A DNA stretch of 24,961 nt, taken from the UHGV virus genome UHGV-0275691. One strand, given 5' to 3'. Positions 20,522 through 23,221 of the stretch are shown here, piece by piece. A program made the position numbers and the translations under genes. A model generated the notes under the pieces. It did no database searches and was not told the origin of the DNA. It was given only the letters and a program-made list of their open reading frames with translations. Each line of letters opens with the position of its first letter. Position 1 is the stretch's first letter. The DNA is from a virus.

Positions 20522-21172
20522 ATGAATACACAACTGATGGGTGAGCGTATTCGCGCTCGCAGAAAAGAACTTAAGATTAGGCAGGCTGCCCTTGGCAAGA
20601 TGGTTGGCGTGTCTAATGTTGCTATTTCCCAATGGGAGCGTTCTGAAACTGAGCCCAATGGCGAAAACCTATTGGCTTTAGCCAAGGCTTTACAGTGCTC
20701 CCCTGATTACTTGTTGAAAGGAGAAGATAGTCTTTCAAACATTGCCTATCACAGCAGGCATGATCCAAGAGGTTCGTATCCTCTAATTAGTTGGGTAAGC
20801 GCAGGATGTTGGATGGAAGCTGTAGAGCCATATCATAAGCGTGCAATAGATAACTGGTACGATACAACCGTAGATTGTTCAGAAGATTCGTTTTGGCTGG
20901 ACGTAAAGGGTGATTCGATGACGGCTCCAGCCGGTCTTAGCATCCCGGAAGGGATGATAATACTAGTCGATCCTGAAGTAGAACCTCGTAATGGGAAGCT
21001 GGTAGTGGCAAAGCTCGAAGGAGAAAACGAGGCAACTTTCAAGAAGTTAGTTATTGATGCTGGCAGAAGGTTTCTAAAACCACTTAACCCACAATATCCG
21101 ATGATTGAGATCAACGGGAACTGCAAAATCATCGGTGTAGTTGTCGATGCAAAAATAGCAAACCTTCCATAA
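20522..21172 (+). CDS. c2: Prophage repressor, P22 C2 type (216 aa), LexA-like autocleaving C-terminal domain
   Basis: Near-identical to recalled P22 C2 repressor over the full length. Confidence 0.95.
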   Translation: MNTQLMGERIRARRKELKIRQAALGKMVGVSNVAISQWERSETEPNGENLLALAKALQCSPDYLLKGEDSLSNIAYHSRHDPRGSYPLISWVSAGCWMEAVEPYHKRAIDNWYDTTVDCSEDSFWLDVKGDSMTAPAGLSIPEGMIILVDPEVEPRNGKLVVAKLEGENEATFKKLVIDAGRRFLKPLNPQYPMIEINGNCKIIGVVVDAKIANLP

Positions 21173-21193
21173 GGGGCATTCGCCCCTTTTTTT
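21172..21193 (+). terminator. Rho-independent terminator immediately after the repressor gene (AGGGGC-ATTC-GCCCCT then T7)
   Basis: Perfect 6-bp GC stem overlapping the stop codon, followed by a seven-residue T tract. Confidence 0.75.
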
Positions 21194-21261
21194 CTTTCCT
21201 TTAAAAATCAAAGCAAAACTTAAGCTTCGCAACAAAATTTAAGTTTTCTTCAAAAACGCTC

Positions 21262-21299
21262 TTGACCAATAGTTAAAGAAATCTTAAATTTAAGTCATC
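21262..21299 (+). promoter_or_regulatory. pL promoter (TTGACC-N17-TAAATT) overlapped by an OL operator palindrome CTTAAATTTAAG (21288-21299)
   Basis: Consensus-like -35/-10 oriented toward N; perfect 12-bp palindrome with the TTAAG half-site over the -10. Confidence 0.6.
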
Positions 21300-21336
21300 G
21301 GCAGGACGCTGGTAGCCAAACGGAACAGATTGGCAG

Positions 21337-21378
21337 GCTCTTTAACATTGATGGGATTGTCCCGCCGAAATGCGGGAA
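21337..21378 (+). promoter_or_regulatory. nutL: nutL: boxA (GCTCTTTAACA) followed by the boxB hairpin
   Basis: Same 19-nt boxB core as nutR in the opposite orientation, 107 nt upstream of the N start. Confidence 0.65.
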
Positions 21379-21484
21379 CCAAAGAGTAGTTGGCTTTGGG
21401 GTGACGTGAAGTGCAGCTGCACGACGGCAACCGGAAGATAAGCACCCGGCGCGTCACCGCCAAAGTCAATCATCGGAGGTCAAC

Positions 21485-21757
21485 ATGGCAGTAGTCATTA
21501 CATATCTGGCTGACGATAACGCCAGAAATCGCCGCAGAGCACGCAGACAGGCTCAACGTGAGCAGGCAATGCAAGAACAGCGACTGGCGCGAAAAATTGC
21601 GCTAAAGCTCTCTGGTTGCGTCAGAGCAGACAAAGCAGCATCACTCGGAAGCCTTCGCTGCAAGAAGGCAGATGAATGCAGTGGAAGTATTTGCCTGCCA
21701 AACGTAGCCATTTACGCGGCAGGCTACCGGAAATCAAAACAACTGACGGCGAGATGA
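21485..21757 (+). CDS. N: Antitermination protein N (arginine-rich motif), P22 gp24-like, 90 aa
   Basis: GGAGGT RBS; N-terminal arginine-rich motif NARNRRRARRQAQREQ; first gene downstream of pL/nutL; C-terminus resembles recalled P22 gp24. Confidence 0.8.
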   Translation: MAVVITYLADDNARNRRRARRQAQREQAMQEQRLARKIALKLSGCVRADKAASLGSLRCKKADECSGSICLPNVAIYAAGYRKSKQLTAR

Positions 21758-21773
21758 TAAATTAATTTGCTAA

Positions 21774-22355
21774 TTACTTGTTTTTGCCATGCTTATCCTG
21801 AGCGATAAGTTCATCCATAAGACTGTCTTTCTTCCCAGCAAACCTAATGTAGCACTCATTTCTATAGCGTTCCGGGATAACAAAACGGTCGATTTCAGGA
21901 TATCCAGTAGCAGAAGGTACCCGAATAAGAAGCCCTTTTTCGAGCAATGAGATTGCTTCAGGGCTTCCCTTTTCTGTCTTTAGCTGGTTATTAGCGGCTA
22001 CAGCGAATGCCAAATACGCTCTTTCTCCAAGAGTTAACGAATCAAACAAATCTTGCACGTATTTCTCTTCTTTAGATTTGCGCTTCTGAGCAGCGAATAT
22101 CTCAATTCTTTCAGTCACAGCGTGATAAGCGGAATTAACAACGCCGTTAAGCACATAGCTAACGCAAAACAACAGGATGTAATACATCCAGTAATGAGGA
22201 AGGATTTCTGGATTATGCAGGTTTATCCATTCTTTTACGCTTATAGGCATAACAATAATCAATATGATTAGGATGATTAGCATATGAATCAACTGTTTAA
22301 GTGTCATTCCTTGCAGGAAAAAATGCATTAGTTCCTGCCACCATGAGTTGTTCAT
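21774..22355 (-). CDS. sieB: Superinfection exclusion protein SieB (membrane Abi-type protein), 193 aa
   Basis: Two hydrophobic helices (LIHMLIILIILIIVMPI; YWMYYILLFCVSYVL); matches my recollection of P22 SieB; located next to N on the opposite strand, as sieB is in P22 and lambda. Confidence 0.8.
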   Translation of the reverse strand: MNNSWWQELMHFFLQGMTLKQLIHMLIILIILIIVMPISVKEWINLHNPEILPHYWMYYILLFCVSYVLNGVVNSAYHAVTERIEIFAAQKRKSKEEKYVQDLFDSLTLGERAYLAFAVAANNQLKTEKGSPEAISLLEKGLLIRVPSATGYPEIDRFVIPERYRNECYIRFAGKKDSLMDELIAQDKHGKNK

Positions 22356-22569
22356 CGGCGTTTCTCTTTTGCTCTCTGTAGGGGTGAATAGAGTTTATCC
22401 GATTTCTCGCTGTAGGGGTACACGAGAACCACCGACCCTGATGTGGTTAAAAGACAGGCATACTAATAAACACTGCACTGTGTATTCATTCCAACGAGTG
22501 AATACACTGAGCAATGTCGCTCGTAACTAAACAGGAGCCGACTTGTTCTGATTATTGGAAATCTTCTTT

Positions 22570-22597
22570 GCCCTCCAATGTGAGGGCGATTTTTTAT
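22570..22597 (+). terminator. Rho-independent terminator in the leftward operon upstream of ea10 (GCCCTC-loop-GAGGGC then TTTTTT)
   Basis: 6-bp GC stem plus T tract on the plus strand; tL-type terminator expected to be read through by N-modified polymerase. Confidence 0.6.
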
Positions 22598-22615
22598 CTG
22601 TGAGGATATGAATAG

Positions 22616-22984: not shown

Positions 22985-23056
22985 GCGCGGCGTTACCGCA
23001 TACCAATAACGCTTCACTCGAGGCGTTTTTCGTTATGTATAAATAAGGAGCACACC

Positions 23057-23221
23057 ATGCAATATGCCATTGCAGGGTGGCCTGTTGCTGGCTGCCCTTC
23101 CGAATCTTTACTTGAACGAATCACCCGTAAATTACGTGACGGATGGAAACGCCTTATCGACATACTTAATCAGCCAGGAGTCCCAAAAAATGGATCAAAC
23201 ACTTATGGCTATCCAGACTAA
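23057..23221 (+). CDS. cIII: CIII (FtsH inhibitor that stabilises CII), 54 aa
   Basis: Manual translation [54 protein letters not shown] matches lambda CIII; AAGGAG RBS; below the ORF-track cutoff. Confidence 0.92.
   Translation: MQYAIAGWPVAGCPSESLLERITRKLRDGWKRLIDILNQPGVPKNGSNTYGYPD

What the first reader, a model, noticed from the sequence alone, without database searches (positions are those of the whole stretch)
21774..22355. sieB superinfection-exclusion (abortive infection) gene adjacent to N
A 193-aa two-helix membrane protein is encoded opposite to the pL operon directly beside N, the position and orientation of sieB in P22 and lambda, and it matches my recollection of P22 SieB. This is a prophage-encoded defence function expected to be expressed in the lysogen.
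Basis: partly seen in the sequence, partly recalled or inferred. Interest (0 to 1): 0.45.

Follow-up and report, generated by a model that had tools for sequence, protein, structure and literature searches.

The report
Intact P22-type sieB exclusion gene
This is an ordinary, already-annotated copy of sieB, the prophage gene that makes a lysogen abort infections by rival phages; it sits beside N with its promoter, internal Esc start and antisense sas RNA region all conserved.

Summary
An intact 193-codon ORF lies at 21774..22355 (-), convergent with an N antiterminator gene 16 nt away. It matches Pfam SieB (88 bits against a cutoff of 26) and PHROG 1301 end to end. It is 84% identical to the experimentally defined P22 SieB and 99.5% identical to VT1-Sakai SieB. 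The window is 100% identical to an E. coli chromosome where RefSeq already names this gene "super-infection exclusion protein B". About 11% of complete E. coli genomes carry the module.

The P22 control elements are all present:
- the mapped P22 sieB promoter (31/31 nt identical)
- the in-frame Met25 that starts Esc
- the sas antisense RNA region (106/111 nt identical)

Function is inferred by homology. SieB is made in the lysogen and aborts superinfecting lambdoid phages. pL transcription makes sas, which switches translation to the inhibitor Esc and spares the phage itself.

The prediction adds two N-terminal hydrophobic helices and a confident C-terminal winged-helix-like domain.

The only less ordinary thing is a side observation. 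The 3' half of sas is a conserved stem-loop plus pseudoknot-compatible RNA element with compensatory changes and no Rfam family. It also occurs in lambdoid phages without sieB.

Verdict: already known, low interest.

The parts
21774..22355 (-). sieB coding sequence, 193 aa plus stop
   Evidence: ORF. Pfam PF14163 88.3 bits. PHROG 1301 full length. 84% identical to P22 SieB and 99.5% to VT1-Sakai SieB. RefSeq WP_001066168.1 'super-infection exclusion protein B' in the 100%-identical genome.
21774..22283 (-). Predicted Esc reading frame (residues 25-193, 169 aa), same frame, starting at the internal ATG
   Evidence: P22 records annotate Esc from codon 25 of sieB. Met25 is conserved in the window and nearly invariant in family alignments, including lambda. 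No Shine-Dalgarno sequence is evident just upstream. Translation is not testable here.
22242..22307 (-). Hydrophobic segment 1 (about residues 17-38), putative transmembrane helix
   Evidence: Kyte-Doolittle 19-residue window mean up to 3.04. The AF2 model has a helix at 19-35, but pLDDT is only about 55-67.
22125..22193 (-). Hydrophobic segment 2 (about residues 55-77), putative transmembrane helix continuing into a long cytoplasmic helix
   Evidence: Kyte-Doolittle mean about 1.4-1.5, with a KRKSK cluster after it. The AF2 model has a helix at 56-105.
21786..22043 (-). C-terminal cytoplasmic domain (residues about 105-190), predicted winged-helix-like fold
22392..22422 (-). sieB promoter / RNA start region
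   Evidence: 31/31 identical to the P22 feature 'promoter, sieB RNA start site' (OQ031658 29690-29720). The generic sigma-70 scan did not find it because the -35 is weak.
22376..22419 (-). Two invariant direct repeats ACCCCTACAG (22419..22410 and 22385..22376) flanking the -10 (GATAAACT)
   Evidence: Invariant in window, P22, lambda, a Yersinia locus and three loci at 41-48% protein identity, and in 53 distinct viral-contig variants. On the sas strand they form the loops of two hairpins.
22351..22460 (+). Homolog of the P22 sas antisense RNA; covers the sieB start codon, 5'UTR and promoter but not the Esc start
   Evidence: 106/111 identical to the P22 sas sequence recovered by small-RNA sequencing (PMC13397905 Table 2). 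Similarity to P22 and lambda ends at 22460. No sigma-70-like promoter was found upstream on the + strand.
22405..22459 (+). Conserved structured 3' half of sas. It has stem-loop SL2 (22405-09 with 22423-27) plus two interleaved helices: S1 (22429-32 with 22443-46) and S2 (22436-40 with 22455-59).
   Evidence: Compensatory and G-U variants fit only this strand. On the covariance-model alignment, 88.8% of cells are paired against 83.9% shuffled (0/500), and the covariation score is 0.151 against 0.071. No Rfam family matches.
21485..21757 (+). N antitermination gene, convergent neighbour
   Evidence: PF25694 57.5 bits, PHROG 271. RefSeq 'transcriptional antitermination N peptide'.

Best explanation
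The ORF is an intact ortholog of the P22 sieB gene in a lambda-like E. coli prophage, and it carries the complete P22-type control module.

Shown here by sequence:
- the coding sequence, 84% identical to P22 SieB
- the P22 sieB promoter
- the in-frame Met25 Esc start
- the sas antisense region on the pL strand

Inferred from the P22 work of Susskind et al. 1974 and Ranade & Poteete 1993, as summarised in PMC10883804, PMC12197685 and PMC10002423:
1. In the lysogen, CI shuts pL, so no sas is made. The sieB promoter then produces full-length SieB, an inner-membrane protein.
2. When a heteroimmune lambdoid phage lacking esc/sas grows in the cell, SieB stops macromolecular synthesis midway through the lytic cycle. 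The infected cell yields no phage (abortive infection).
3. When this prophage is induced, or a phage with the same module infects, pL transcription runs antisense across sieB and yields sas.
4. sas pairs with the sieB 5'UTR and start codon. It blocks SieB initiation but leaves the Esc start, 72 nt downstream and outside the duplex.
5. Esc (SieB lacking residues 1-24) neutralises SieB, giving self-immunity.

My own inference from the predicted structure:
- The strongly conserved N-terminal amphipathic helix plus two transmembrane helices are the membrane effector.
- The variable cytoplasmic winged-helix-like domain is the part that senses the invading phage.
- Esc acts as a dominant-negative subunit, much like an antiholin.
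For: - Family match: Pfam SieB 88.3 bits against a cutoff of 26; PHROG 1301 1-193/193.
- Identity: 84.3% to P22 SieB and 99.5% to VT1-Sakai SieB.
- Prior annotation: RefSeq names it SieB in a 100%-identical genome.
- Homologs: all but three short fragments of the 118 homologs carry PF14163.
- Synteny: convergent with N in P22, lambda, VT1-Sakai and four relatives at 41-52% identity.
- Promoter: 31/31 identical to the P22 feature.
- Esc start: Met25 conserved.
- sas: 106/111 identical to the sequenced P22 sas RNA, overlapping the start codon by 5 nt and ending before the Esc ATG.
- Membrane topology: two hydrophobic segments with positive charges after the second.
- Conservation pattern: the N-terminal 70 residues are near-invariant while the C-terminal domain varies.
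- Physiology and the Esc/sas switch are taken from the literature.
Against: - Nothing about expression, membrane location, the Esc product or exclusion was measured for this allele.
- The generic sigma-70 scan does not call the sieB promoter.
- No Shine-Dalgarno sequence precedes Met25.
- Met25 lies inside the first hydrophobic helix, so it could be conserved for structural reasons.
- Single-sequence folds of sas and of the sieB 5' end are no more stable than shuffles (z -0.23 and -0.85).
- The last 55 residues are only 64% identical to P22, and residues 86-101 only 50%. The range of excluded phages may therefore differ from P22's.
- How sas is made (own promoter or processing of the pL transcript) is unresolved. 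No promoter-like site was found upstream of 22351.
- The winged-helix assignment rests on a prediction from 30 sequences. Foldseek E-values are all >=0.019.
Confidence: 0.85

Rival explanations
1. The gene is a genuine SieB homolog, but in this E. coli prophage it is silent or has no exclusion activity. It would be a conserved passenger kept by linkage to N and the pL operon.
For: No functional data exist for this allele. The promoter has a weak -35 and is missed by the consensus scan. The C-terminal third diverges from P22. No PADLOC model exists, which suggests little modern functional work.
Against: The frame is intact and the same length as in hundreds of genomes. The closest 90%-identity cluster, at 99% identity, has 441 members, and 577 of 5426 complete E. 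coli genomes hold at least 80% of the module. Promoter, Esc start and sas are all retained at 96-100% identity to P22. The N-terminal 70 residues stay near-invariant down to 37% overall identity, which indicates purifying selection.
Confidence: 0.08
2. SieB is primarily a membrane-tethered nucleic-acid-binding regulator. Its winged-helix domain would bind the invariant ACCCCTACAG repeats, or phage DNA/RNA, to control transcription rather than to trigger a membrane-based abortive response.
Against: The repeats are invariant, whereas the winged-helix-like domain is the most variable part of the protein and looks swapped between lineages. The same repeats precede an unrelated cargo protein, phrog_1244, in four contigs. 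On the opposite strand the repeats are the loops of covarying RNA hairpins, which explains their conservation without a DNA-binding protein. The reported P22 physiology is a general arrest of macromolecular synthesis. The fold hits are weak.
Confidence: 0.05
3. The ORF is a chance open frame antisense to pL read-through, not a gene.
For: It lies antisense within an operon, in AT-rich DNA.
Against: The family matches are highly significant, with full-length conservation across Escherichia, Salmonella, Citrobacter, Yersinia and others.
Confidence: 0.01

Closest known systems
Salmonella phage P22 sieB / esc / sas module (Susskind et al. 1974; Ranade & Poteete 1993)
   Same: 84% protein identity over 191 aa. 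The gene is convergent with the N homolog (gene 24). The annotated promoter is identical (31/31). The Esc start is at codon 25. The sas region is 106/111 identical.
   Different: The host is E. coli and the phage backbone is lambda-like (Bet/Exo/Gam, cIII, ea10). Residues 86-101 are 50% identical and residues 139-193 are 64% identical, a mosaic pattern. ral is absent downstream, so the sas region abuts a PreS/LPR1-like segment. The window has one extra C-terminal residue (193 aa against 192).
Enterobacteria phage VT1-Sakai (Sp15) SieB, and HK140 / lambda-like 'ev' phage SieB
   Same: 98-99.5% protein identity and the same neighbours (N, ea10, cIII, kil, gam, bet).
   Different: The 5' part of N and the immunity region differ from VT1-Sakai, with similarity starting only at query base 180. 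VT1-Sakai has an extra ORF between cI and pL.
Phage lambda SieB (lambdap48)
   Same: Same position and orientation beside N. Same PF14163 family and two N-terminal hydrophobic segments. A Met aligns with Met25. A near-identical ~85-nt upstream promoter/sas block is present.
   Different: Only 24% protein identity (E=4e-7 pairwise). Lambda SieB is 184 aa, and ral and orf28 lie downstream in lambda.
Lambda RexAB and holin/antiholin dual-start genes (functional analogies only)
   Same: All are prophage-expressed membrane proteins. RexAB likewise causes abortive exclusion of other phages. The S105/S107 pair likewise gives an effector and its inhibitor from two in-frame starts in one gene.
   Different: No sequence relationship. 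Rex is a two-protein sensor/channel system and is absent from this window. In S, the longer product is the inhibitor, whereas here the shorter product (Esc) is. These analogies rest on established knowledge and were not tested here.

Membership tests
SieB (Pfam PF14163 / PHROG 1301) | Sequence match to the family profile above the curated threshold | tested here: met
   PF14163 88.3 bits against a cutoff of 26, covering residues 24-164 and profile positions 2-144 of 147. PHROG 1301 E=1.4e-123 over 1-193/193.
SieB (Pfam PF14163 / PHROG 1301) | Close similarity to the experimentally defined prototype (P22 SieB) | tested here: met
   84.3% identity over 191 aa, E=1e-96. Alignment.
SieB (Pfam PF14163 / PHROG 1301) | Located in the early-left operon beside the N-type antiterminator, on the opposite strand | tested here: met
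   The stop codons of N and sieB are 16 nt apart and convergent. The same arrangement holds in P22, lambda, VT1-Sakai and four distant relatives.
SieB (Pfam PF14163 / PHROG 1301) | N-terminal membrane anchor (two hydrophobic helices) | tested here: met
   The hydropathy profile shows two segments and a basic cluster after the second. This is prediction only; membrane insertion is not testable here.
P22-type sieB/esc/sas regulatory module | In-frame internal initiation codon giving Esc | tested here: met
   ATG for Met25 at 22283..22281 (-), the codon annotated as the esc start in P22 records. It is at least 90% conserved in the family. Only presence of the codon is shown; translation cannot be tested.
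P22-type sieB/esc/sas regulatory module | sieB promoter active in the lysogen | tested here: inconclusive
   The sequence is 31/31 identical to the annotated P22 promoter/RNA start feature. Activity was not measured, and the consensus scan does not detect it.
P22-type sieB/esc/sas regulatory module | sas antisense RNA complementary to the sieB translation start but not the Esc start | tested here: met
   Window 22351..22460 (+) is 106/111 identical to the sequenced P22 sas RNA. It overlaps the ATG by 5 nt and ends 68 nt short of the Esc ATG. Expression is not testable here.
P22-type sieB/esc/sas regulatory module | Exclusion (abortive infection) of superinfecting phages, with self-immunity through Esc | not testable with these tools
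   This needs phage plating and burst assays on a lysogen or clone.
MarR-type winged-helix DNA-binding proteins (considered for the C-terminal domain) | Significant sequence or structural match to solved winged-helix regulators | tested here: inconclusive

The most novel reading that the evidence does not exclude
The sieB gene itself is ordinary, but its control region may not be. The 3' half of the sas antisense RNA (window 22405..22459, + strand) could be one instance of an uncatalogued, modular structured RNA of lambdoid early-left operons. The element is a stem-loop followed by a small H-type pseudoknot. It is conserved with compensatory changes from lambda to Klebsiella and Cronobacter phages. 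It sits next to sieB, next to an unrelated coiled-coil/zinc-ribbon cargo gene (phrog_1244), or with no opposite-strand gene at all, and sRNA genes (PreS, DicF-like) lie downstream of it. It could be the 3'-end, stability or termination module that lets pL transcripts spawn discrete regulatory RNAs. In parallel, SieB may be a fixed 2-TM effector with a swappable winged-helix sensor domain.
Probability: 0.35. Interest if true: 0.45.

Novelty: already known. Interest (0 to 1): 0.12.

Why it matters
For the finding as stated, little is at stake. It is a correctly recognised, widespread and already-annotated prophage gene. Its presence predicts only that this E. coli lysogen may abort infection by some heteroimmune lambdoid phages, which is relevant to phage therapy host range and Stx-phage spread. 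SieB remains mechanistically obscure, with no solved structure and no model in PADLOC. The predicted architecture, and the observation that the N-terminal effector half is fixed while the C-terminal winged-helix-like half is swapped, give testable hypotheses. The conserved stem-loop/pseudoknot at the end of sas would deserve an RNA-family description if confirmed.

Tried and rejected
- PADLOC and NCBIfam scans of SieB gave no meaningful hits. The best PADLOC hits had E about 0.04, and NCBIfam returned none.
- The profile search of PDB sequences found nothing significant, E>=0.49.
- Single-sequence RNA folds of sas and of the sieB 5' region were not more stable than shuffles. Structure support comes only from comparative data.
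- The generic promoter scan found neither the sieB promoter nor any promoter for sas.
- Rfam has no family at the sas position or at the related elements in other phages.
- I asked whether the conserved upstream block was lambda's PreS/LPR1 sRNA. It is not. PreS maps between ral and ea10, which corresponds to the adjacent window segment 22464..22615.
- I asked whether the stem-loop plus pseudoknot is lambda's tL1 terminator or an HK022 put-like element. I could not verify either from the held literature. The two 1993 primary papers are not in the library, and the tL1 search was uninformative.
- The MAFFT and covariance-model alignments mis-register the 3' arm of helix S2 in some variants. I re-derived the arms with a script that picks the best-pairing arms, which biases it towards pairing.

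Full report
**Observation.** The window holds a 193-codon ORF at 21774..22355 on the minus strand. It has an ATG start and no in-frame start further upstream. Sixteen nucleotides beyond its stop, on the other strand, ends a 90-aa gene at 21485..21757 that matches the N antitermination peptide family (PF25694, 57.5 bits). The surrounding genes place the ORF antisense inside a lambda-type early-left operon. These are cII and cro on the minus strand. On the plus strand they are a CI/LexA-type repressor, a pL-like promoter at 21262..21290, N, then ea10 (DUF2528), cIII, kil, gam and bet. Hydropathy shows a strong hydrophobic segment at about residues 17-40 and a weaker one at about 51-77.

**Identity.**
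- The protein matches Pfam SieB (PF14163, E=4.7e-25, 88.3 bits against a cutoff of 26) and PHROG 1301 over its whole length (E=1.4e-123).
- By tblastn it is 99.5% identical to the annotated SieB of VT1-Sakai and 84.3% identical over 191 aa to sieB of Salmonella phage P22, the genetically defined prototype.
- To lambda SieB it is only 24% identical.
- The 2.9 kb around it is 100% identical to the chromosome of E. coli strain 3359. There RefSeq already names the product "super-infection exclusion protein B", WP_001066168.1.
- The gene plus its upstream block is present at 80% coverage or more in 577 of 5426 complete E. coli genomes.
- A search of 5.8 billion proteins returned 118 relatives. All but three short fragments carry PF14163, and they come from Escherichia, Salmonella, Citrobacter, Yersinia and others.
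- In four relatives at 41-52% identity the gene is again convergent with an N-type gene next to a CI-type repressor.

**Control elements.** P22 records annotate three things around sieB: a promoter/RNA start, the SieB frame, and an in-frame Esc product starting at codon 25.
- The 31-nt P22 promoter feature is present unchanged at window 22422..22392.
- Met25 (ATG at 22283..22281) is conserved here. It is nearly invariant across the family, including lambda.
- A 2026 small-RNA sequencing paper gives the sequence of the P22 sas antisense RNA (PMC13397905). The window's plus strand at 22351..22460 is 106/111 identical to it.
- This RNA overlaps the sieB start codon by five bases and covers the 5'UTR and promoter. 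It stops well short of the Esc start.
- According to the literature, SieB halts macromolecular synthesis midway through the lytic cycle of superinfecting P22-like phages. Esc inhibits SieB. sas, made by the infecting or induced phage, switches translation from SieB to Esc.
- All of this is inferred for the window by homology. Nothing was measured.
- How sas arises is open. No sigma-70-like promoter lies upstream of 22351 on the plus strand, so derivation from the pL transcript seems likelier (inference).

**Protein architecture.** An AlphaFold2 model from 30 aligned homologs has mean pLDDT 79. Confidence is low (55-67) over the first 60 residues and high (87-94) over residues about 100-190. 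The model shows:
- an N-terminal helix
- two hydrophobic helices
- a long connecting helix
- a compact alpha/beta domain

Across the family, the N-terminal 70 residues are almost invariant down to 37% overall identity, while the C-terminal domain varies and looks exchanged. Against P22 the window is mosaic:

| Residues | Identity to P22 |
|---|---|
| 1-85 | 95% |
| 86-101 | 50% |
| 102-138 | 100% |
| 139-193 | 64% |

My inference is a fixed membrane effector joined to a variable cytoplasmic sensor. Esc lacks residues 1-24 and would act as a dominant-negative partner.

**Side observations in the control region.**
- The ~105-nt block upstream of sieB is nearly identical in the window, P22 and lambda, even though the lambda protein is only 24% identical. 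It is recognisable in Yersinia and other distant loci.
- It contains two invariant direct repeats, ACCCCTACAG, flanking the -10.
- A scan of viral contigs with the promoter core found at least 120 instances. In 112 the next ORF is SieB-like. In four it is instead an unrelated 155-166-aa coiled-coil/zinc-ribbon protein, phrog_1244, of unknown function.
- Read on the sas strand, the repeats are the loops of two hairpins.
- The block ends in two interleaved helices, CCAC/GUGG and GCCUG/CAGGC, compatible with an H-type pseudoknot.
- Twenty-six distinct variants keep these helices. Some do so through compensatory changes (GCCGG/CCGGC, GCCUA/UAGGC, CCUC/GAGG). Others carry G-U pairs that work only on this strand.
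- On a covariance-model alignment, 88.8% of cells are paired against 83.9% in shuffles (0/500). The covariation score is 0.151 against 0.071, and at most 0.082 in slid controls.
- Caveats: the alignment was fitted to the structure, the sequences are related, and my arm-finding script favours pairing.
- No Rfam family matches.
- The same pseudoknot-like motif, preceded by a different covarying hairpin, occurs in the early-left operons of SfII, SfV, Rac-SA53, phiES15 and Klebsiella phages, with or without an opposite-strand gene. Its role is unexplained.
- Immediately downstream, window 22464..22615 is about 98% identical to lambda's ral-ea10 intergenic region, where the Hfq-dependent sRNA PreS/LPR1 ends at tL2a. 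ral itself is absent here.

**Verdict.** The gene is a standard P22-type sieB in a lambda-like E. coli prophage. It is already annotated as such in public records and is common in the species. Novelty: already known. Interest is low (0.12). The structured sas 3' element and the predicted domain architecture are the only aspects that might repay further work.

Noticed in passing
window 22464..22615 (+), hairpin 22568..22589 plus T-run: This segment is about 98% identical to lambda's ral-ea10 intergenic region, the site of the Hfq-dependent sRNA PreS/LPR1 that ends at terminator tL2a. ral and orf28 are absent here, so the sas-like and PreS-like segments abut directly.
   Followed up: partly
window 22405..22459 (+): A conserved stem-loop plus two interleaved helices (pseudoknot-compatible) forms the 3' half of the sas homolog. 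It shows compensatory and strand-specific G-U variants across 26 sequence types and has no Rfam family. The window itself carries a C at 22436 that breaks the outer pair of helix S2.
   Followed up: partly
window 22410..22419 and 22376..22385: Two invariant 10-nt direct repeats (ACCCCTACAG on the sieB strand) flank the -10 of the sieB promoter. They are conserved from lambda to loci at 37-45% SieB identity. On the sas strand they are hairpin loops, and the second is complementary to the predicted 5' end of sieB mRNA.
   Followed up: partly
L027, L079, L100, L112 (IMG/VR contigs): The same promoter/5'UTR/sas-like block precedes an unrelated 155-166-aa coiled-coil plus CxxC...CxxC zinc-ribbon protein (phrog_1244) instead of sieB. 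That protein has unknown function and no Pfam or PADLOC match. It looks like an alternative cargo at the same locus.
   Followed up: partly
L132 1801-1866, L133 1801-1863, L134-L137 around position 900-975; second copies L107 2158-2246, L031 3744-3832, L040 3804-3915, L110 748-865: The pseudoknot-like motif also occurs without sieB, preceded by a different covarying hairpin (loop UUGUGUGAGAACU). It is found in early-left operons of SfII, SfV, Rac-SA53, phiES15 and Klebsiella phages. DicF-like or STnc100-like sRNA matches lie downstream, below Rfam gathering scores.
   Followed up: partly
window 23044..23102 (+): Rfam Lambda_thermo, the cIII thermoregulator RNA element, at 88.5 bits against a gathering score of 50, overlapping the start of cIII.
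   Followed up: no
window 21172..21580: There are no rexA/rexB genes between cI and the pL-like promoter (21262..21290). The 5' part of N and its leader are unlike VT1-Sakai but match HK140, so a mosaic junction lies inside N near 21580.
   Followed up: no
P0104 (Enterobacter hormaechei protein from the homolog search): This SieB-family protein is called from the Met25-equivalent start. Its C-terminal roughly 60 residues are replaced by unrelated sequence, so it may be a naturally truncated or recombined variant.
   Followed up: no
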